From IMG/VR virus record IMGVR_UViG_3300021399_000126, positions 1 through 64,000 of that record: a stretch of DNA of 64,000 bases. One strand, given 5' to 3'. Of this stretch, positions 735 through 52,417 are shown in pieces. Below the pieces are notes generated by a model. It made no database searches. It was not told the DNA's origin and saw only the letters and a program-made list of their open reading frames with translations. This stretch comes from a virus. Lineage: Duplodnaviria; Caudoviricetes. Both the position numbers and the translations under genes were made by a program. Numbering within the stretch: the first letter of the stretch is position 1; each line of letters starts with the position of its first letter.

Positions 735-3608
735 CTATTCATTCTCACCATGAACCATCTTATTAACAAGTGATGTAGAACAGCCTAATCTATCGGCTAC
801 TTCTGCTTGTGTATAACCAGATGATAGCATAGCTTTAGCAAGCGCTATATTATTCTTATTAGTACTAATGTATTTAGTTGTGGTATTCTCTTTAGGTGTA
901 GCCATTTGCTTAAGTTCTGTTGAATCCATGTTAGAAATGATCTTCTGCATCATGGTTGAACCAATTGCTCCAGCTTGTATAGCTTCCCATTCTCTATCTG
1001 TTAAATGAACAAGTCTAGCTTTCTTAGAAGCACCAGTTAAAGCTCTTCCTTCTGCTAAAGCAGCATTCTCTATCTTTTTACGCCAATCTCTATCTTCTTT
1101 CTTAGCAGGGTTGTCTTTAAACTGAGCTTTAGTAATACTATTAGCAATTGCCTGAGCTCTTCTCTCTAAAGGTGCATTTAACATTGCTAATTTAACTTTG
1201 TCATTAAGAGAAGCTACTTCTTTAGCATATGTTTGAGCTGCAGAAGGTGATCTTTTTAAAGAAGGAATTTTAACAGACTCAAGTCTAGCTTGATTGGCCA
1301 TCTTCTTTAGCGTATTTGCATATTCGGCATATAGATTTTCTACTCTAGACCCAGTAGATAACTCATATGCATCTTTGGTCTCTGCCATCTGACTAGATTT
1401 GGTACGGTTGTATACTACTTTACCATTCTTATCTGTATAGTGTCTGCCTGTATACTGCCATTCTTTTTCACCTGTCTCTTTGTTTATTTTATACCAGGAT
1501 CTTTCAGGTACATCATACTCATTCTTAGCTCTAGATATCAGAGTAGATGCTCCATGTTTAGATGGATCATTAGGATTAACTTGATATGTTCTTTTTAATT
1601 CTGCAATATTATTATCCTTATAGCATTGTTTCCAGTCAAGTCCATGTTTCTCAGCATCAATAATCATCTGAGCACATTTAACAGCTCTAACAATATCTTC
1701 TGGAGGAGCACCTTTAATTCCCATATCTGTAAGAAGATTTGTACAAATACCCATTTGTCTCTGTTTCATAGTTGACGAAATTACTTTATCTGGATGTAAA
1801 GCTTTTTCTTCATCAGTCATTTTATAAAGCTCTTTTGGTTCGTAATTTCTTAATTCTGCAAATACACCTTCTTGTTTTGTTGTCTTAAAGTTTATTCCTT
1901 TTGTTGGTATAACTAAAACATTATCGCCATCAAAATCAGCTCCTGATAACTGGTGAGCAACATTAGCATTAATTCCAACAGCATCTATGGGTGATGTACC
2001 AAGCATCTTCTTTCCTTCTGCATTAGAGTTGTTTACTCTAAGAACTGGAATCTCAAATGTACCTTGGTGAGGATAACGTATACAAATTACTTCTTCTCCG
2101 TCTTTAAAATTAGTTGCATAGATCTCATTATCCTTTAAAGAAGTAACAGGAAGTATAGCACACGTTTTTTGCCTCGGTAATCCTGCTGCTTTAAGATCTA
2201 CTGCTGATGCATCACATTCTTCTGCAAAATCTATTAAAGCTTTCTTTCTAATTTCAGGATTTGTATACTGAGAAACTTCATCTAATTCTCTTTGTTTTTG
2301 AGCAATGCTTAATCTTAACTGATTTTCAACCAACTTAGTAGGTTGTTTAGCTAAGAACTGTGATGCTAGGTTAGTATTATTAGCCCAACCAGACCAAGTT
2401 CCTTCATCATTTACTTTATTTATAGCTGAAAGATGTTCATTACCATTTTTATCAGCGTACATTGATTGTCCACCAGCCATTATCGATGCACCAAAAGGAC
2501 GCTCCTTATCTACGCCGCCATCTTTAAAATAGTGTTTATTTTTATCTACTTTAGTATCAGCAGTTGATATGAACTTCTTATTTTCAAATTCATACCATCC
2601 TAAATCATTTGGATTCTCGTCACCTTTAGGATCCGCATCAACTTTAACACGTTCCATTTTCTTAAATGCTTTATTAGGACCATCAGCTCTACTTTTATTA
2701 GAGTTTAATATAATGTCATAGCCCTTAGGAACATTGTCAGAATATACAGCCATTCCTTTCAGGTATCTATCACCATCTACTGCTATTCTTACCTGTGAAT
2801 AGTTCGATTTTCCAAGATCAAGATCAGGAACACCTCTTCTTAATTCAATAACACCATCCTTATCAGCTCCACCATCTTCTGCATATTTAATAAATATTCT
2901 TGAAGAATCTATGGACTGAGGAAATTGTGTCTTTCTAAGTATTGGACCATCAGCACTATCATCAAAAGTAATATCTTTTAACGGTTTAACTTGTCCAACG
3001 TCTTTCATTAATTCTGGATATGTTGTATCTTTATCACCAAGTACCATAAAAGTAGTATTCTTTCCAGTACCAAGCTGCTTAACTTTAGGAGTAAATGTTT
3101 GATATCCTTCATCTTTAAGCATTTCCACAGCTGCATCCATTTTAGATCTTGCAACATTTAATCCTATTTCAGTCGATTCGCCAATATCAACAAATCTTTT
3201 CTTCTTTACTTCATCTTCAATTGCATCTTTAACAGCAAATATTACTTTATTTCGCTCTTCTGTCATAGGATCGAGCAAAGTTCTGACATAAGATTCACCC
3301 TTACCACCAAGCATCTTACCTATTGCTTCATTTGTATATCCGGCTTCTCTTTGTCTTTGAGCAAAAGAAATTTCGTCTCTTTTTCTTTGTGATCTTTCGA
3401 TCATGTTCCTTTTATTGAACATATCCATGGAAATACCCATGTCTTCGGCGATCTCTTTATTAGAAAATCCTTTCTTTCTCAACTCGTCTGCTCTGTCTAA
3501 GAACCAACTTTCATGTTGAAAAGGCTCATCTCCTGAACCCCAAGGATATCTACCAGATCTTCTAGGCATTCCATAATGTTGTAATTCGTCCATTCGAAAC
3601 TCGTCCAC
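735..3608 (-). CDS. Single-chain double-psi beta-barrel RNA polymerase (YonO / cellular RdRP-like) with N- and C-terminal HTH motifs
   Basis: RYPH...AVGIN...LSGADFDGDNVLV catalytic-loop signature; Q.IIDAEKHG segment; HTH-like segments GFSNKEIAEDMGIS, GYTNEAIGKMLG and GYTQAEVADRLGCSTSLV. Confidence 0.8.
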   Translation of the reverse strand: MDEFRMDELQHYGMPRRSGRYPWGSGDEPFQHESWFLDRADELRKKGFSNKEIAEDMGISMDMFNKRNMIERSQRKRDEISFAQRQREAGYTNEAIGKMLGGKGESYVRTLLDPMTEERNKVIFAVKDAIEDEVKKKRFVDIGESTEIGLNVARSKMDAAVEMLKDEGYQTFTPKVKQLGTGKNTTFMVLGDKDTTYPELMKDVGQVKPLKDITFDDSADGPILRKTQFPQSIDSSRIFIKYAEDGGADKDGVIELRRGVPDLDLGKSNYSQVRIAVDGDRYLKGMAVYSDNVPKGYDIILNSNKSRADGPNKAFKKMERVKVDADPKGDENPNDLGWYEFENKKFISTADTKVDKNKHYFKDGGVDKERPFGASIMAGGQSMYADKNGNEHLSAINKVNDEGTWSGWANNTNLASQFLAKQPTKLVENQLRLSIAQKQRELDEVSQYTNPEIRKKALIDFAEECDASAVDLKAAGLPRQKTCAILPVTSLKDNEIYATNFKDGEEVICIRYPHQGTFEIPVLRVNNSNAEGKKMLGTSPIDAVGINANVAHQLSGADFDGDNVLVIPTKGINFKTTKQEGVFAELRNYEPKELYKMTDEEKALHPDKVISSTMKQRQMGICTNLLTDMGIKGAPPEDIVRAVKCAQMIIDAEKHGLDWKQCYKDNNIAELKRTYQVNPNDPSKHGASTLISRAKNEYDVPERSWYKINKETGEKEWQYTGRHYTDKNGKVVYNRTKSSQMAETKDAYELSTGSRVENLYAEYANTLKKMANQARLESVKIPSLKRSPSAAQTYAKEVASLNDKVKLAMLNAPLERRAQAIANSITKAQFKDNPAKKEDRDWRKKIENAALAEGRALTGASKKARLVHLTDREWEAIQAGAIGSTMMQKIISNMDSTELKQMATPKENTTTKYISTNKNNIALAKAMLSSGYTQAEVADRLGCSTSLVNKMVHGENE

Positions 3609-25730: not shown

Positions 25731-25755
25731 ATTAAAGAAGGATTAAATTATGCGA
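25731..25755 (-). promoter_or_regulatory. Phage promoter motif overlapping the 3' end of the PurA-like gene
   Basis: TCGCA-N14-TTTAAT. Confidence 0.7.
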
Positions 25756-26847
25756 ATTAACACAATCCCTTGTTGGACCATTACTAATGTAATTATAAGA
25801 AAAATTTTCATCTGGTTTAATTTCGTCAGCATGTGTTAAAGCTATAGTTGTTTTAACTTTATAAGGTGATGAATCAATTTTTATTCGTTCGTACAACGCT
25901 TCATAGTTTATATTAGCATACCGAAGATTTCCTTGAAATGGATTATAAACATTTGTTTTATCAACAAATCCAAAATCTATTTCATCATCAAGTTTACCAT
26001 CACCATGTCTAGTGAGATAGGTTCTAGAAACATAGCAAGCTTCTATATCCAAATCTTTTCTATCACCAATAATATCAAAAACAGCTTTCAATCCAGTATT
26101 ACTAGATGTTCCATATTCAGGATCATAATCTTTATCTAATAATAAACCTTGAGCGTTTTCAAATATAATGGTATCATAGTGATCAAACAAATAATCTTGG
26201 TCACAAACCGGAGTACAAATATGTTGCATAGACCTAAAATCTTGTATAAAATTATTTATAAGATTATCAGAATAATAAGCGTTTTTCCAATTTCCAGATA
26301 AATGTATATTATTTTCTTCCATCTTCTGTTTATAATATACATCTCTAATATCCAATAAATCTTTTTCTATTTCATTATCTGTCATGCATGCATATCTTAT
26401 AAAGTTTGCACCATTTCGTCTTTTTGTTTCATAAACACCATATCCACAACTATTATTAAGGCCTTGCTCAGTCATGAAAAGTATGTTATAAATCATATCA
26501 AATGGTGTACTAACCAAACAATTATTATTTATCCGTGGTCTTGGAGTAAATCTAGTATCCTTGTTTAATAGTTTATACTCCTCTACAAATATAAGAGGAT
26601 TGGAAACAAATTGAGCTGGAATATAAGTATCCGCACCAGCAAATGTTCCACTTCCAAAATGATGAAAAATATGTCTTAAATTATTAACCTGTACAGTATG
26701 ACCTCTTTGTGATCCACCATTCGTTAAAACATTTAGGCACTTGGCATTTTTATCAGCTTCAAGAGCCTGATGACAAAAATAATCTGTCATCAAGCCCTTT
26801 CCCTCGTCTCCGTAGTTTGCTCCTATAACAGCTTTGACTACTACCAT
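25732..26847 (-). CDS. Adenylosuccinate synthetase-like protein (divergent PurA family)
   Basis: GANYGDEGKG, NGGSQRGHTV, FENAQGLLLD, RTYLTRHGDG, DKTN and GNLRY motifs. Confidence 0.85.
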   Translation of the reverse strand: MVVVKAVIGANYGDEGKGLMTDYFCHQALEADKNAKCLNVLTNGGSQRGHTVQVNNLRHIFHHFGSGTFAGADTYIPAQFVSNPLIFVEEYKLLNKDTRFTPRPRINNNCLVSTPFDMIYNILFMTEQGLNNSCGYGVYETKRRNGANFIRYACMTDNEIEKDLLDIRDVYYKQKMEENNIHLSGNWKNAYYSDNLINNFIQDFRSMQHICTPVCDQDYLFDHYDTIIFENAQGLLLDKDYDPEYGTSSNTGLKAVFDIIGDRKDLDIEACYVSRTYLTRHGDGKLDDEIDFGFVDKTNVYNPFQGNLRYANINYEALYERIKIDSSPYKVKTTIALTHADEIKPDENFSYNYISNGPTRDCVNSHNLILL

Positions 26848-29251: not shown

Positions 29252-29905
29252 TTAAAAATCACAAACCTTTATCTTTACTGTAATTCGTTTGCCATTTCGA
29301 TCGTACAAGTCTTCATAGGGCTTACAAACTAATCCTTCCATATTAGCAGTTCCAATCAATGACTTTGGATGAGTCTTAACAAATTTTACAGCATTGTCAA
29401 GTGGCCCAACACATACAATAGGAACTACATCTATTCCTAAAGATTTAGCAATATCTTCAAGGCTGCTTCGGTTCGCCCAAACATTACTTCCTGGGAAATA
29501 AATGTCAAACAAGATAAATGAAGTATCATCTGGAATATAGTCTTTGCCACATTTCTGTATCTTATTACCGTAACCTTCACCAAAGAATATAACTTCTTTT
29601 TCACCAAATAACTGTTCGAGTAGCTCTTCCATTTCATTAGTTAAGAATATACTTTCCAACTTTTCTAGAAGATGCTTTGGAATATCAGCTTTTTCAGTTC
29701 TTCCTTGAAACGAAACTTTATGACCATCCCATATTATGCCAATGTTTGTACCATCAATTTTTTCTGTGCAAATCCAATCAAGATCTTTCAAATATTCTAC
29801 AGCTTTATTACGGAACTGCCCCTCAATCAACTTCTTAGTTCCTTCTGTATCACGTTCGTAGATTGTTTCAATTTTTGTATAAGTGTACATATTATCTCCT
29901 TTCAA
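29252..29905 (-). CDS. RNA ligase (Rnl2-like nucleotidyltransferase)
   Basis: EKIDGTN, FGEGYG, FDI, EGLV and KIK motifs. Confidence 0.8.
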   Translation of the reverse strand: MKGDNMYTYTKIETIYERDTEGTKKLIEGQFRNKAVEYLKDLDWICTEKIDGTNIGIIWDGHKVSFQGRTEKADIPKHLLEKLESIFLTNEMEELLEQLFGEKEVIFFGEGYGNKIQKCGKDYIPDDTSFILFDIYFPGSNVWANRSSLEDIAKSLGIDVVPIVCVGPLDNAVKFVKTHPKSLIGTANMEGLVCKPYEDLYDRNGKRITVKIKVCDF

Positions 29906-36009: not shown

Positions 36010-36577
36010 TTCTTATTCCTCACTATCAAAACAAAACCTTTACTTCTTCTCTATTATTTTTATTTAGAAAAACAATAGTTTTACCTGATATCAATTTGCA
36101 ATAGTTATTAGCTGCTTCAGTTAAAGTTTTTCCTCTCCCAACTACACCTTTAAAACAGTAAACATCGTCAATCCAGCCATCCTTATATCCAACACAAATA
36201 TTGTCATCAATGTCCTTAGATACTTCCAAAGGATGATTATCAAGGCTTAATAATTTATTAAATGTGTCATATATTTCATTGTTGACATCTTGTCTGTTAT
36301 AACCTCTAAAAGCATTTAATGCTCTTTCATATAAATCGTTTCCTTTTTCATCTGAAATACTTTTCTGATTTGTATATTTGTCGAATATATCGCATATCTC
36401 TGTAGCAATGTCTAAATCATCAATATATTCTAAAATCTCATCTCTTATCTTGCCAAGTACTTCAATCATTTCTTTTGAAGATACTGTATTATCTGCCATT
36501 ATTTATTCCTCTCTTTCTGTGGTGCTATATCGGCAACACCACTTTCCGCCGCTGATTTTCCCTCAGCAGTAAAAGAA

Positions 36578-36661
36578 TGCTGGCAACGAGACTCGAACTC
36601 GTACGATCTTACGATCATTGGATTTTAAGTCCAAGGCGTCTACCTATTCCGCCATGCCAGC
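36578..36661 (-). tRNA. tRNA-Leu(TAA)
   Basis: GCTGGCA/TGCCAGC acceptor stem; TTGGA-CT-TAA-AA-TCCAA anticodon arm; long variable arm; ACGAG-TTCGAGT-CTCGT T arm; no encoded CCA. Confidence 0.92.
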
Positions 36662-36761
36662 ATGAATAGAGCTCACTAGAAAGGAGGTTGTGAATATAAT
36701 TATGTGAGACTCTATTCTAAAAATGTGAGGTAAAAATGGAAATTAGGCTCTTACAAGCCAA

Positions 36762-36880
36762 TGGTGTGGGTAGGGAATCGAACCCTACATGATGGTATCA
36801 AATACTGATTAGCTACTTCAGTCTTCATCGTGATTATACTTGATATAACCACTGCGTTTATCCACTTCCGCCACCACACC
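36762..36880 (-). tRNA. Aberrant 119-nt tRNA-Leu(CAA)-like RNA
   Basis: GGTGTGG/CCACACC-A acceptor; Leu-type D arm; 8-bp anticodon stem with loop ATCAAGT; about 40-nt variable region; 6-bp T stem with TTCGATT loop. Confidence 0.65.
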
Positions 36881-36925
36881 ACTCAACATTACGGAGGACC
36901 GTGTCCATTATGCAAAACACGGACA

Positions 36926-36997
36926 CAGGGCTAGTCGGATTCGAACCGACGCATCCAGCAGTCAAAGTGCTGTGTCTTTCCGCTTGGCTATAGCCCT
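36926..36997 (-). tRNA. tRNA-Gln(TTG)
   Basis: AGGGCTA/TAGCCCT acceptor; CAGCA-CT-TTG-AC-TGCTG anticodon arm; GTCGG-TTCGAAT-CCGAC T arm. Confidence 0.92.
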
Positions 36998-37033
36998 AAA
37001 AAGATTAGAGGAACCTTAATAGATTCCTCTAAT
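36998..37033 (-). terminator. Cassette-end hairpin directly abutting the tRNA-Gln 5' end
   Basis: AGAGGAAUC-UAUUAA-GGUUCCUCU followed by AAUCUUU. Confidence 0.6.
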
Positions 37034-50551: not shown

Positions 50552-52417
50552 TCACCTCTTAGGAATGTATGCTACATTAATCTGTGCCACGTGACAGGAA
50601 TAAGTTACATAATCTTTTCTCGATACGTTGATGCCGTAGATGTAATCAGTTTTTAATTCCGATGCGGTTGGATACTCACCATCTTTTAATATTCTAAATA
50701 CTTTCATACCATTTATTTCAAGGCTAATTCCCGAATAAGAATCATTGCTCAATCTTCCTTTTATAGTTACTATCCCATCTGATGTTGGTTCATAAGTGCC
50801 GCTTACGCTTTCAACTTGAGAAGATGCATAAATATTTGTTGCAGAATAAGTGTGTCCTGCATCAATAATATCAATCTTCTGCTTTACAGTAGTATTACTA
50901 TCATACAAGCACCTATTCGCCGTAGTCTGTAAATCTACTACTGCTTTTTTGTTGCCATAGTAGAGGGTGATTTTTGTACCGTTGGCTGGTTTGGTCGTGG
51001 ATTTATCTGAATAACTTGAACCTGTGGATTCTTCAAATTGTGAATTGCTATCCTCGATGTAATAAGTCCTTATCCTTGCTCCCGCACTTTCAGACAAGCC
51101 TTGAAAGAAGGTAACTGATGTTCCGTAATTCGCACGAAGTACACTGATATTTTTATTCCCATTAGTAAGGATTATTGCAAGATATGCGTTATCTCTTACT
51201 TTAGAAAAATCCATTTCTGTGGCTATTTCATTTAGCAAGGTCGCATAAGTCTTAACCCCATCTGCCGTAACCTCTACATAATCCTCACTTGCAGGCTCTA
51301 TTACACTTCCATCGCCATCGGGTATTAGATATAGTCCGTCCTCGGTTTCAGAAGAATAGTCTGCACTTGCGACAGATTTGATTACTTCGACTATAGTCTT
51401 TTCATTCGTGGGGTCGTCTGATACATGACTATCCGTAAACTGCATCGTTGGTTCTTGTGCTACCGCTGTTCCGCTTGCATCTACAATGATATGATCGTTT
51501 GAACCACGGTCTATACATATCAAATTGTAGTTTCCGCTATATACAAAGGTAGCAATATCTCCAGCTTTTATCACGTCTGCAACTATCTTTGCTCCTTGAT
51601 AATATATGTTCTTTGCACCCTTGTTGTTTATATTAAGAGTTGCATTTGCTGGAACACTATTTGTAAACTTAACAGATACAATTCCATTCGTCACAAGCGA
51701 ATATCCTGATAATGTTGCTACCTTTGCCGTAGTAGCCGCTGCAGTTGAACAGATAGCATATCCAAACCCCAAAGCTTGTGGAGTATAAGTGGTGTTATTA
51801 TCAGCACTCGAACCTGCCCATACCCAATAAGTACCATCGTATACATAGTAGTTGTAATAATTCAACCTACCAAAATATGTTGTATTAGTTCCTGTCGGTG
51901 TTGCCGTATTTCCACCATATATCTGCTTTGCACCTGTATTGTTTACATTCAACTTAACAGGGTTTTCAGTGGTAGCAGAATAGGTATTGTTTGCATCAAA
52001 TTTTACGGCAAGAATTGATCCTACTTTGAGTTCAAAGTTCTGTTCGTTTGATACTGTGACAGCTTTAATCTGATTTGCTTCTTCACCTGTGCAAGTGCCG
52101 TAAAAAATTCCACCACCACTGCCAGTAATTTGTACTACAGTTTTATCGTCTGTGCTGTTATCGGTAACTGTAACACCTGTGCCAGTAAACTGTAAATTGG
52201 TGCGCTGTGTCATATCAGTACCATCGCCGTCTTTTATCGTGTGTCCTCCACTACTTTGCTCAGGAACATCAGTTATTAAATAATGTGTTCCAGCTCTTTC
52301 TTCATCTGTTAATGCTATCCATTCAGCGTAAGTTATTTCAACTGGCTTAGTATCTTTTTTGGAATTTATAGCATTCATTAATGATGTGGCATTATCATTT
52401 GATACAAAATTAGCCAT
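50552..52417 (-). CDS. Tail fibre / receptor-binding protein with internal repeats
   Basis: Duplicated YG.C.T...K.VT...G.I..VKF..N...LN.N..GAK.IY domains; start MANFVS. Confidence 0.65.
   Translation of the reverse strand: MANFVSNDNATSLMNAINSKKDTKPVEITYAEWIALTDEERAGTHYLITDVPEQSSGGHTIKDGDGTDMTQRTNLQFTGTGVTVTDNSTDDKTVVQITGSGGGIFYGTCTGEEANQIKAVTVSNEQNFELKVGSILAVKFDANNTYSATTENPVKLNVNNTGAKQIYGGNTATPTGTNTTYFGRLNYYNYYVYDGTYWVWAGSSADNNTTYTPQALGFGYAICSTAAATTAKVATLSGYSLVTNGIVSVKFTNSVPANATLNINNKGAKNIYYQGAKIVADVIKAGDIATFVYSGNYNLICIDRGSNDHIIVDASGTAVAQEPTMQFTDSHVSDDPTNEKTIVEVIKSVASADYSSETEDGLYLIPDGDGSVIEPASEDYVEVTADGVKTYATLLNEIATEMDFSKVRDNAYLAIILTNGNKNISVLRANYGTSVTFFQGLSESAGARIRTYYIEDSNSQFEESTGSSYSDKSTTKPANGTKITLYYGNKKAVVDLQTTANRCLYDSNTTVKQKIDIIDAGHTYSATNIYASSQVESVSGTYEPTSDGIVTIKGRLSNDSYSGISLEINGMKVFRILKDGEYPTASELKTDYIYGINVSRKDYVTYSCHVAQINVAYIPKR

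What the first reader, a model, noticed from the sequence alone, without database searches (positions are those of the whole stretch)
36762..36880. Non-canonical 119-nt tRNA: 8-bp anticodon stem, branched 40-nt variable arm, 7+6 acceptor/T helix
Seen: intact acceptor, D and T arms between two normal tRNAs. The anticodon arm is GUGGUUAU-AUCAAGU-AUAAUCAC (CAA after U), the variable region is GAUG..ACUGA/UCAGU..CAUC, and the T stem is GUAGGG/CCCUAC. All insertions stay base-paired, which argues against simple decay. Inference: a tRNA mimic or decoy (anticodon nuclease, T-box or LeuRS sponge), a frameshifting tRNA, or a substrate processed with the phage RNA ligase.
Basis: partly seen in the sequence, partly recalled or inferred. 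Interest (0 to 1): 0.7.

Follow-up and report, generated by a model that had tools for sequence, protein, structure and literature searches.

The report
Oversized leucine-tRNA-shaped phage RNA
A rumen phage carries, between two ordinary tRNA genes, a 119-base gene that keeps the top half of a leucine tRNA but has an over-long codon-reading arm and a giant extra arm. It most likely makes a tRNA-shaped RNA that does not read codons, one of a large and little-studied class of phage RNAs whose job is unknown.

Summary
On the minus strand of 36762-36880 lies a 119-nt tRNA-shaped gene with:
- a perfect 7-bp acceptor stem;
- a Leu-type D arm;
- an 8-bp hairpin with the 7-nt loop AUCAAGU;
- a 39-nt extra arm closed by GAUG/CAUC;
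- a 6-bp T stem;
- discriminator A.

ARAGORN and Rfam miss it. "Branched" is not supported; the extra arm folds best as one interrupted hairpin.

It belongs to a large class. One pattern scan of IMG/VR returned at least 115 phage loci with 103-134-nt genes that keep a tRNA-Leu top half and replace the lower half with a 52-83-nt hypervariable insert. A covariance model built from 79 of them, without the candidate, scores it 56.7 bits; phage T5 "RNA1", annotated as a tRNA-like stable RNA of unknown function, scores 53.0. Seventeen of the 100 sequences share the 7/6 acceptor/T layout, with covarying T-stem pairs.

The candidate is the only one of the 100 that still has a strong anticodon-like hairpin, and its triplet is CAA (Leu). 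I read it as a tRNA-Leu(CAA) derivative that is processed, and probably leucylated, like a tRNA but cannot decode. Its role is unproven; I favour a decoy or sponge. An ARAGORN "intron" call is an artefact of loose settings.

No divergent homologue or RNA data could be obtained. This scan has noted the class before on other genomes.

The parts
36762..36880 (-). Whole 119-nt tRNA-Leu-like gene, from G1 to discriminator A119; no CCA is encoded
   Evidence: Sequence. Family model R1: 56.7 bits, full length. Folding z-score -3.9.
36874..36880 (-). Acceptor stem, 5' strand (GGUGUGG); U at -1
   Evidence: Seven Watson-Crick pairs with 36763-36769. U(-1) is shared with both neighbouring tRNAs.
36854..36871 (-). 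Leu-type (class II) D arm: GCG/CGC stem, loop with A14, A15, G18, G19
   Evidence: Differs at two bases and one extra base from the D arm of the neighbouring tRNA-Leu(UAA). The matching columns are invariant in the 79-member alignment.
36830..36852 (-). Hairpin 1 at the anticodon-arm position: 8-bp stem, loop AUCAAGU (CAA); can close to 10 bp plus a CAA triloop
   Evidence: Pair probability 0.97-0.98. Stems of at least 8 bp arose in 21 of 200,000 shuffles. It is the only such hairpin among the 100 class sequences compared.
36791..36829 (-). Expanded variable arm (39 nt): closing stem GAUG/CAUC, inner hairpin ACUGA/UCAGU with a 9-nt loop, followed by the AU spacer
   Evidence: Constrained MFE. 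Same layout (4-bp closing stem, then 2 nt, then the T stem) as the neighbouring tRNA-Leu and as class member L108.
36797..36803 (-). AUUUGAU segment of the variable arm, complementary over 7 nt (one G.U) to the hairpin-1 loop; it carries UUG, the codon for CAA
   Evidence: Seen directly in the sequence. 1.4% of shuffles of 52-92 give such a complement. The alternative fold that uses it has -33.2 against -35.1 kcal/mol.
36770..36788 (-). T arm with a 6-bp stem GUAGGG/CCCUAC and loop UUCGAUU; U48 lies immediately 5' of it
   Evidence: The 7/6 layout is shared by 17 of the 100 sequences (8 distinct scaffolds). The outer pair is always G-C, and pairs 2-4 covary.
36762..36769 (-). Acceptor stem 3' strand (CCACACC) plus discriminator A; followed by U(+1)
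   Evidence: A73 is the main LeuRS determinant (PMC2377443).
36925..36998 (-). Canonical tRNA-Gln(UUG), 44 nt upstream of the element
   Evidence: ARAGORN; Rfam 56.2 bits.
36577..36662 (-). Canonical tRNA-Leu(UAA), 99 nt downstream of the element
   Evidence: ARAGORN; Rfam 60.2 bits.

Best explanation
The gene is a derivative of a phage tRNA-Leu(CAA) that has left decoding and become a tRNA-shaped small RNA. It belongs to the same broad class as phage T5 RNA1.

Shown:
- It keeps a complete Leu-type top half: acceptor stem, D/T elbow, U48 and A73.
- Its lower half is expanded: 3 extra pairs in the anticodon stem, about 25 extra nucleotides in the variable arm, and 1 extra pair in the T stem.

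Inferred:
- It is transcribed with the neighbouring tRNAs.
- Host RNase P and a 3' tRNA-trimming enzyme cut it out. It has U(-1) and U(+1) like its neighbours.
- The host adds CCA.
- Host LeuRS probably charges it with leucine, because LeuRS needs only the elements it retains.
- It cannot work on the ribosome. The anticodon-like loop sits 3 bp too far from the elbow and can zip shut, and the acceptor/T helix is 13 bp.

My best guess for its role (about 0.2-0.25 on its own) is that it acts off the ribosome as a decoy or sponge for a host factor that grips class II tRNA top halves or variable arms. Examples are tRNA-cleaving defence nucleases or enzymes that act on the acceptor end. A tRNA-scaffolded carrier of the variable insert is the next option.
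For: Top half:
- Seven perfect acceptor pairs and a Leu-type D arm nearly identical to the neighbouring tRNA-Leu.
- U8, A14, A15, G18, G19, U48, U55, C56 and A73 are all present. These are the LeuRS recognition elements, and deleting the whole anticodon arm costs only a 2.5-fold loss of affinity (PMC2377443).
- Model R1, built from 79 IMG/VR members without the candidate, gives 56.7 bits. The phage's own tRNA-Leu scores 53.9 and T5 RNA1 scores 53.0.

The class:
- 95 of 111 parsed members have a perfect 7-bp acceptor stem, and 86 of 111 have A73.
- Inserts are 52-83 nt.
- The Rfam tRNA model spans several members at 31-42 bits with the anticodon arm treated as a local insertion.
- The 7/6 layout recurs with covariation.
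- No partner protein gene recurs near 103 elements, so host machinery is implied.

Leu ancestry of the lower half:
- The loop triplet CAA is a Leu anticodon.
- The variable arm starts and ends where that of the neighbouring tRNA-Leu does.

Against decay:
- Hairpin 1 has p about 1e-4, and the folding z-score is -3.9.
- The only two changes in about 99%-identical relatives from three other gut runs are G-C to G.U in the T stem and A to G in the D loop.

Against decoding:
- Natural anticodon stems are 5 bp, rarely 6 (PMC7609411).
- TTG is a minor codon here, 8.9 per 1000 against 37.6 for TTA, and tRNA-Leu(UAA) already covers it.

Precedent for a decoy role: Septu and retron-Eco7 cut the variable loop of class II tRNA-Tyr, and phage tRNAs counter them (PMC13096335).
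Against: - There is no expression, end-mapping or charging data. No RNA run held the locus.
- No divergent homologue of this element was found, so no pair in hairpin 1 or the variable arm is backed by covariation.
- The known relatives are about 99% identical, so their two structure-neutral changes carry little weight.
- Model R1 scores ordinary tRNA-Leu almost as high. It therefore tests the top half only, not membership of the oversized class as such.
- The candidate differs from 99 sampled class members by keeping an anticodon-like hairpin. It could be a different thing that merely shares tRNA-Leu ancestry.
- 23% of class members lack A73, so leucylation is not a universal class feature.
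- PMC2377443 also says that the orientation and maximal length of the variable arm matter for one LeuRS, so the 39-nt arm might hinder charging.
- The decoy role is conjecture.
Confidence: 0.6

Rival explanations
1. It is a working, if odd, tRNA-Leu(CAA) that decodes UUG. The extra pairs and the long variable arm would be tolerated or compensated on the ribosome.
For: - The 7-nt loop has U at 33, the Leu anticodon CAA and a purine at 37, on a body with full Leu identity.
- It sits in a tRNA cluster with the same -1/+1 context as its neighbours.
Against: - The anticodon stem is 8 bp; known natural stems are 5 bp, or 6 bp in Sec, Pyl and mt-Ser (PMC7609411).
- A32-U38 and U33.G37 can pair, so the loop closes to a triloop.
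- G37 after A36 is not what I recall for UUR-reading Leu tRNAs (own knowledge).
- The acceptor/T helix is 13 bp.
- TTG is rare, and the neighbouring tRNA-Leu(UAA) already reads it.
- tRNA finders reject it.
Confidence: 0.1
2. It is a split or interrupted tRNA. Nucleotides 35-78 would be removed and the ends rejoined, for instance by a nuclease plus the phage RNA ligase. The product would be a 75-nt tRNA with stem GUGGU/ACCAU and loop UUUUGAU (anticodon UUG) on a Leu-identity body.
For: - After deleting 35-78, default ARAGORN calls a 75-nt tRNA(UUG).
- A canonical 5-bp stem plus a U33/R37 loop reachable by one deletion occurs in only 0.16-0.55% of shuffled inserts.
- The phage encodes an RNA ligase (PF09414, 29252-29905).
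Against: - The ARAGORN intron call itself is meaningless. The same settings call a full-span 'intron tRNA' in 889 of 1000 shuffles, and at default settings the real sequence is not called while 22 of 1000 shuffles are.
- 44 nt is far too short for a group I intron, and Rfam finds none.
- The junctions form no bulge-helix-bulge motif (inspection folds).
- The fold is 6-10 kcal/mol worse than fold A.
- The product would lack the variable arm that goes with its class II D arm, and would put Leu at Gln codons.
- The phage already has a tRNA-Gln(UUG).
- No DNA form without the 44 nt was seen in four gut runs (table 5).
Confidence: 0.05
3. It is a tRNA-Leu pseudogene that picked up insertions and is decaying without function.
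For: - Gene finders and Rfam miss it.
- There is no expression evidence.
- There is no constraint signal. Relatives are about 99% identical across the whole region, spacers included.
Against: - Every helix of the top half is perfect and all tertiary nucleotides are kept.
- The inserted material is itself paired (z -3.9, hairpin p about 1e-4).
- More than 100 independent phage genes share the design, and the 7/6 variant shows covariation.
- One class member, T5 RNA1, is annotated as a stable RNA.
Confidence: 0.12
4. It is an RNA switch. The CAA loop pairs with the UUG-containing segment of the variable arm, as an intramolecular 'codon-anticodon' helix or kissing contact. The RNA would then alternate between two folds and sense or regulate something.
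For: - There is 7-nt complementarity between 37-43 and 78-84; 1.4% of shuffles give this.
- The alternative fold C is within 2 kcal/mol of fold A.
Against: - This is a post-hoc observation in an AU-rich, near-palindromic stretch.
- The pairing probability of hairpin 1 is 0.98, so the alternative is rarely populated in the model.
- There is no comparative support.
Confidence: 0.05

Closest known systems
Bacteriophage T5 RNA1 (gene rna1, T5s03, NC_005859 30501-30644; annotated 'tRNA-like stable RNA with unknown functions')
   Same: - Phage-borne and located in a tRNA cluster.
- Leu-type D arm (CCGGAAUUGGUAGACGG), T arm and acceptor stem.
- Oversized middle.
- Scores 53.0 bits on the family model, against 56.7 for the candidate.
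- The Rfam tRNA model spans it only weakly (24 bits over 131 nt).
   Different: - T5 RNA1 is 144 nt. By my reading, it keeps a 5-bp anticodon-type stem with a roughly 50-nt insertion in the loop, plus a normal class II variable arm and a 5-bp T stem.
- The candidate keeps a closed 8-10-bp hairpin with a Leu triplet, puts its extra RNA in the variable arm, and has a 6-bp T stem.
- The inserts share no sequence similarity.
Canonical class II tRNA-Leu of bacteria and phages (for example the neighbouring tRNA-Leu(UAA), 36577-36662)
   Same: - Acceptor stem, D arm, U8-A14, A15-U48, G18/G19-U55/C56 and A73.
- The variable arm begins right after the anticodon stem and ends 2 nt before the T stem.
- CAA is a Leu anticodon.
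   Different: - The anticodon stem is 8 bp, not 5.
- The variable arm is 39 nt, not about 13.
- The T stem is 6 bp, not 5.
- The loop can close.
- ARAGORN and Rfam do not detect it.
tRNA-Sec, selC* tRNA-Cys and allo-tRNAs (PMC5389517, PMC7609411)
   Same: - Non-canonical acceptor/T helix; tRNA-Sec has 13 bp, as here.
- Longer anticodon stem and long variable arm.
- Some occur in phages or metagenomes.
   Different: - Their layouts are 8/5, 9/4, 8/4 or 9/3, never 7/6.
- Their anticodon stems reach 6 bp, not 8.
- tRNA-Sec has a 6-bp D stem and a UCA anticodon.
- The candidate has a Leu-type D arm, and the Rfam tRNA-Sec model gives no hit.
Bacteriophage T4 species 1 and species 2 RNAs (rnaC, rnaD; NC_000866 70908-71171)
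   Same: - Small stable phage RNAs of unknown function, encoded beside tRNA genes.
- rnaC has a tRNA-type T arm.
   Different: - rnaC matches the family model only weakly (19.4 bits over part of its length), and rnaD does not match at all.
- Neither has a Leu-type D arm.
Phage tRNAs that counter tRNA-cleaving defences (T5 and T6 tRNA-Tyr against retron-Eco7 and Septu; PMC13096335)
   Same: - A phage-encoded class II tRNA body whose variable arm differs from the host's.
- Proposed there to act as a decoy or supplement.
   Different: - Those are functional decoders of normal size.
- No defence system, cleavage or rescue has been tested for the candidate.

Membership tests
Canonical tRNA (class II tRNA-Leu) | 7-bp acceptor stem, D arm and T loop with the conserved tertiary nucleotides, discriminator A73 | tested here: met
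   Read directly from the sequence. The top half scores like a true tRNA-Leu on model R1.
Canonical tRNA (class II tRNA-Leu) | 5-bp anticodon stem with an open 7-nt loop | tested here: not met
   The stem is 8 bp, and 10 bp plus a triloop in the MFE and ensemble. Natural stems are 5 bp, rarely 6 (PMC7609411).
Canonical tRNA (class II tRNA-Leu) | 5-bp T stem giving a 12-bp acceptor/T helix; variable arm of roughly 10-20 nt | tested here: not met
   The T stem is 6 bp (7/6, 13 bp in all) and the variable arm is 39 nt.
Canonical tRNA (class II tRNA-Leu) | Recognised by tRNA gene finders and covariance models | tested here: not met
   ARAGORN at default settings finds nothing. Rfam tRNA and tRNA-Sec give no hit, even at E up to 10 on 601 bases.
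Phage oversized tRNA-Leu-like RNAs (T5 RNA1 type) | Leu-type top half (acceptor stem, UGGCGGAA..GG..ARACGC D arm, GGUUCRAnUCC T arm) | tested here: met
   R1 gives 56.7 bits over the full length, the best hit in the window, against 53.0 for T5 RNA1. Note that R1 also scores ordinary tRNA-Leu at 35-54 bits.
Phage oversized tRNA-Leu-like RNAs (T5 RNA1 type) | The region between the D arm and the T stem is greatly enlarged (52-83 nt in the sample, against about 33-36 nt in tRNA-Leu) | tested here: met
   65 nt (28-92) lie between the D arm and the T stem.
Phage oversized tRNA-Leu-like RNAs (T5 RNA1 type) | No usable anticodon arm | tested here: inconclusive
   The candidate is the only one of the 100 with a strong hairpin and a 7-nt U33/R37 loop. 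The stem is too long and the loop can close, but non-decoding is inferred, not shown.
Phage oversized tRNA-Leu-like RNAs (T5 RNA1 type) | Accumulates as a stable processed RNA in infected cells | not testable with these tools
   No RNA holder was listed. Reads were laid on DNA contigs.
tRNA-Sec / allo-tRNA | 8/5, 9/4, 8/4 or 9/3 acceptor/T layout; for Sec a UCA anticodon and a 6-bp D stem | tested here: not met
   The layout is 7/6, the triplet is CAA, and the D stem is 3 bp with a 12-nt loop. Rfam RF01852 gives no hit.
Intron-containing tRNA | Group I intron, or a bulge-helix-bulge motif at the exon-intron junctions | tested here: not met
   44 nt is too short, with no Rfam intron hit. The junction fold has one 3-nt bulge followed by an 8-bp helix, not a BHB. 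The ARAGORN intron call is reproduced by 889 of 1000 shuffles.
LeuRS substrate (leucine identity) | A73 plus the tertiary core: U8-A14, A15-U48, G18-U55, G19-C56 | tested here: met
   All are present in the sequence. The criteria come from PMC2377443. Actual charging was not tested.

The most novel reading that the evidence does not exclude
The candidate, and the class it belongs to, would be RNA-based counter-defence. These would be leucine-tRNA look-alikes, matured and perhaps charged by host enzymes. Their re-modelled lower halves would soak up or mislead host factors that attack or sense class II tRNAs. The candidate would be a caught-in-the-act intermediate between a true tRNA-Leu(CAA) and the anticodon-less scaffolds.
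Probability: 0.2. Interest if true: 0.75.

Novelty: new variant of a known kind. Interest (0 to 1): 0.5.

Why it matters
Phage genomes are annotated with tools that miss these genes: 1 of 115 class members was called by default ARAGORN. A common kind of phage RNA is therefore invisible in databases.

The only described members I could tie to it are stable RNAs of T5, and loosely of T4. By their GenBank annotation their function is unknown.

This candidate is useful because it still shows its origin: a Leu anticodon, a Leu-type variable-arm frame and all LeuRS determinants. That links ordinary phage tRNA-Leu genes to the anticodon-less scaffolds and gives a concrete substrate for testing three things:
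- whether such RNAs are processed, CCA-tailed and leucylated;
- whether a 7/6 acceptor/T helix and an 8-bp anticodon stem exclude an RNA from translation;
- what they bind.

If they prove to be decoys for tRNA-directed defence systems, that would add an RNA class to phage counter-defence.

Tried and rejected
Searches for homologues of this element:
- Exact hairpin-1 sequence in IMG/VR: no hit.
- D-arm/T-loop gapped pattern in IMG/VR and JGI metagenomes: no hit.
- blastn against GenBank phages: only 20-30-nt T-arm or chance hits.
- Neighbouring proteins and the RNA polymerase in IMG/VR: no close relatives.
- Neighbour-protein alignments in GTDB genomes: nothing.
- JGI metagenomes: one contig (L126) that has lost synteny and carries no tRNA.
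- The genome search draws no 'relatives' for a virus record.

Expression:
- No RNA holder was listed.
- The single read-laying run was used on four DNA runs. It gave only about 99%-identical copies.

Intron reading:
- Rejected as evidence after the shuffle control.

Antisense target in the phage's own genome:
- The best antisense match is 12 nt, E 0.26, which is chance level.

Partner protein for the class:
- No recurrent neighbour was found.

Promoter scan of the spacers:
- 6 sites against 3.7 +/- 2.2 expected, which is not significant.

The 43-codon ORF overlapping the element (36751-36882):
- Not pursued. The tRNA-type structure explains the region.

NC_055904 (cr273_1):
- It has the same length as this genome (97,886 bp) by coincidence. 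It is an unrelated crAss-like phage.

Literature:
- Six full-text searches found no paper describing this class (one search failed on a term that was too short).
Full report
**Setting**

The window is part of a 97,886-bp IMG/VR virus record rated 100% complete. It has 32.9% G+C, and all 93 predicted long ORFs lie on the minus strand. Sequencing runs that hold the locus are animal gut metagenomes, mostly from ruminants (goat, sheep, bovine). The genome has only two tRNAs that standard tools call:
- tRNA-Gln(UUG) at 36925-36998;
- tRNA-Leu(UAA) at 36577-36662.

These match the phage's preferred A-ending codons: TTA 37.6 and CAA 17.5 per 1000.

**The observation**

- a 7-bp acceptor stem, then U8 G9;
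- a Leu-type D arm (GCG/CGC stem; A14, A15, G18, G19 in the loop);
- one linker base;
- an 8-bp hairpin GUGGUUAU/AUAAUCAC with loop AUCAAGU;
- a 39-nt arm closed by GAUG/CAUC, with an inner ACUGA/UCAGU hairpin;
- the spacer AU;
- a 6-bp T stem GUAGGG/CCCUAC around UUCGAUU;
- the 3' acceptor strand and discriminator A.

No CCA is encoded. The base before the 5' end and the base after the discriminator are both U, as in the two neighbouring tRNAs.

The features exceed chance:
- The folding z-score is -3.9.
- A hairpin of at least 8 bp with a 7-nt U33/purine-37 loop at that exact spot arose in 21 of 200,000 shuffles of the insert.

Two details need correcting:
- With the top half constrained, the best fold of the extra arm is a single interrupted hairpin, not a branched arm.
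- The '7-nt loop' can zip up through A-U and U.G to a 10-bp stem with a CAA triloop. Pair probabilities in hairpin 1 are 0.82-0.98.

ARAGORN at default settings and the Rfam tRNA and tRNA-Sec models do not detect the gene, even at E up to 10.

**An alternative cloverleaf, and why I set it aside**

With introns allowed and the score threshold lowered, ARAGORN calls exactly 36762-36880 as 'tRNA-Gln(UUG) with a 44-nt intron'. After deleting nt 35-78, default ARAGORN accepts the 75-nt remainder, with stem GUGGU/ACCAU and loop UUUUGAU.

The control is decisive for the first point. The same settings call a full-span intron tRNA in 889 of 1000 sequences whose insert was shuffled. At default settings the real sequence is not called, while 22 of 1000 shuffles are.

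A stricter test of my own asked for a 5-bp stem with at most one G.U in register with the T arm, plus a U33/R37 loop. Only 0.16-0.55% of shuffles pass it, so the pairing potential is real. Several points still count against splicing:
- 44 nt cannot be a group I intron.
- There is no bulge-helix-bulge motif.
- Four gut DNA runs showed no copy lacking the 44 nt.
- The product would be a Leu-identity tRNA reading Gln codons, beside an existing tRNA-Gln(UUG).

The phage does encode an RNA ligase (PF09414, 29252-29905), but nothing ties it to this RNA. I keep this reading at about 5%.

A related fact: loop 37-43 is complementary over 7 nt to 78-84, which contains UUG, the codon for CAA. This happens in 1.4% of shuffles. 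It allows a third fold within 2 kcal/mol of the first. I record it as a possible switch or kissing contact, without comparative support.

**Relatives of the element itself**

I found none that are informative. Contigs from three other gut runs carry the element with just two changes:
- C108U, which turns a T-stem G-C into G.U;
- A23G, in the D loop.

The whole 700-nt region is about 99% identical, so this says little. The other routes are listed under Tried and rejected.

**The class**

I scanned IMG/VR for a Leu-type D arm followed 55-85 nt later by a T loop. That spacing is too long for any normal tRNA-Leu. Parsing them gave 111 parsed elements (99 distinct sequences), 103-134 nt long:
- 95 of 111 have a perfect 7-bp acceptor stem.
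- 86 of 111 have A73.
- The insert between D arm and T stem is 52-83 nt and essentially unalignable.

The Rfam tRNA model spans several members end to end at 31-42 bits, with the anticodon arm treated as a 44-68-nt local insertion. Default ARAGORN of 115. Only 34 of 115 have a canonical tRNA within 500 nt. No protein family recurs next to 103 elements beyond small groups of related phages, which points to host rather than phage partners. One subfamily's insert forms a pseudoknot with a compensatory C-G to U-A change, so at least some inserts are selected structures.

A covariance model (R1) built from 79 members, without the candidate, gave these scores:

| Sequence | Bits |
|---|---|
| Candidate (full length, E about 8e-15) | 56.7 |
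| The phage's own tRNA-Leu | 53.9 |
| T5 RNA1 | 53.0 |
| T4 tRNA-Leu | 40.5 |
| T5 tRNA-Leu | 35.2 |
| T4 rnaC | 19.4 |

R1 thus certifies a Leu-type top half; the oversized middle is a separate, directly visible criterion. T5 RNA1 is annotated in GenBank as a 'tRNA-like stable RNA with unknown functions'. By its sequence it is built on the same plan. Earlier notes of this scan reached the same class from other genomes and supplied the T5/T4 lead. I reached the class independently and tested the T5 link myself.

**The 7/6 helix**

Seventeen of the 100 sequences compared, 8 distinct scaffolds including the candidate, have a 6-bp T stem directly abutting a 7-bp acceptor stem:
- The outermost T pair is always G-C.
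- Pairs 2-4 covary (C-G/U-A, G-C/A-U, A-U/G-C/G.U).
- The base before the stem is always U, which fits an A15-U48 tertiary pair.
- 'CAU' precedes the stem in 5 of 8.

The nearest scaffold, L108, ends ...GGCAUC AU GUGAGG UUCGAUU CCUCAC CACAUCA A. That has the same layout as the candidate's ...CCAUC AU GUAGGG UUCGAUU CCCUAC CCACACC A, and its insert is likewise closed by a GAUGCC/GGCAUC stem two bases before the T stem.

The review I checked lists 13-bp acceptor domains only as 8/5 and 9/4, and puts anticodon stems at 5 bp, or 6 bp in Sec, Pyl and mt-Ser (PMC7609411).

**What sets the candidate apart**

Among the 100 sequences, it alone has a strong hairpin with a 7-nt U33/R37 loop right after the D arm. 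The triplet shown, CAA, is a leucine anticodon on a leucine-type body. Its variable arm starts right after that hairpin and ends two bases before the T stem, as in the neighbouring tRNA-Leu (GAUC...GAUC GU, then the T stem).

The simplest history is a tRNA-Leu(CAA) gene that gained:
- three pairs in the anticodon stem;
- about 25 nt in the variable-arm loop;
- one T-stem pair.

Loop changes (A32, G37, U38) also let it close.

**Mechanism**

Shown: the anatomy above.

Follows from established knowledge:
- LeuRS recognises A73 and the tertiary core and does not need the anticodon arm (PMC2377443). All those elements are present, so leucylation is plausible.
- The same paper warns that variable-arm orientation and maximal length matter for one enzyme.

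Inferred:
- Maturation is by RNase P, a 3' trimming enzyme and the CCA-adding enzyme.
- The RNA is excluded from decoding, because the loop is 3 bp too far from the elbow and the acceptor/T helix is one pair too long.

Conjecture: the RNA acts off the ribosome as a decoy or sponge. The precedent is that Septu and retron-Eco7 cut the variable loop of class II tRNA-Tyr, and phage tRNAs with different variable loops counter them (PMC13096335).

Not supported:
- A frameshifting role, because the loop is 7 nt.
- A T-box decoy role, because the distance from anticodon to elbow is wrong (inference).

**Verdict**

The candidate is a new variant of a known but barely described kind (T5 RNA1-type phage tRNA-like RNAs, derived from class II tRNA-Leu).

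Confidence in 'a non-decoding, tRNA-Leu-derived, tRNA-shaped RNA' is about 0.6. The specific decoy role is about 0.2. The main gaps are expression data and divergent homologues.

Noticed in passing
L007 about 1365-1430, minus strand (IMGVR_UViG_3300031994_000050, about 51165-51223 of the record): A 91-kb phage sharing one protein motif with this one has tRNA-Gln(UUG) followed about 70 nt later by a 59-62-nt tRNA-like gene. It has an acceptor stem, D arm and T arm but no anticodon arm (Rfam tRNA 45.2 bits). By sequence it looks like a deletion derivative of that phage's own tRNA-Gln.
   Followed up: partly
L127 1404-1529 (NC_055904.1 cr273_1, gap before the primase gene); the same in NC_055903.1: An unannotated tRNA-like element sits in two crAss-like pig-gut phages. 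It has a GUAGGG/CCCUAC T arm identical to the candidate's and a possible GGCUC/GAGCC closing stem. The family model gives only 15 bits (E 0.03).
   Followed up: partly
IMG/VR loci L021, L038, L033, L036, L044, L064 (elements listed): In one subfamily of the oversized tRNA-Leu-like genes the insert looks like an H-type pseudoknot. A hairpin loop (GCCA or GUCA) pairs with a downstream UGGC or UGAC, a compensatory C-G to U-A change, and a conserved CAACUCAU lies before the T stem.
   Followed up: partly
window 37004-37033, minus strand: A 13-bp hairpin followed by CUUUUU runs straight into the first base of tRNA-Gln. It looks like a terminator, yet leaves no room for a promoter before the tRNA cluster. 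It may be a processing signal or a signal specific to the phage polymerase.
   Followed up: no
window 36746-36759, minus strand: A small GGCUU-GUAA-GAGCC hairpin followed by a U-rich run starts 3 nt after the element's discriminator. In run X3 the only change there (36757 G>A) turns C-G into U.G.
   Followed up: no
window 735-3608 (-), 25732-26847 (-), 29252-29905 (-): The phage encodes three notable genes:
- a 957-aa protein matching PHROG 4291 (labelled 'RNA-dependent RNA polymerase'), with full-length relatives (about 43% identity) in Arthrobacter phages;
- a protein matching PHROG 1211 (labelled 2-aminooxy adenylosuccinate synthetase);
- an RNA ligase (PF09414).
   Followed up: partly
L021 2697-2745: A DUF2693-FD RNA (Rfam RF02926, 76 bits) lies 6 kb from an oversized tRNA-Leu-like gene. 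An October 2026 preprint reports that this motif folds like a tRNA. The phage therefore carries two kinds of tRNA mimic.
   Followed up: no
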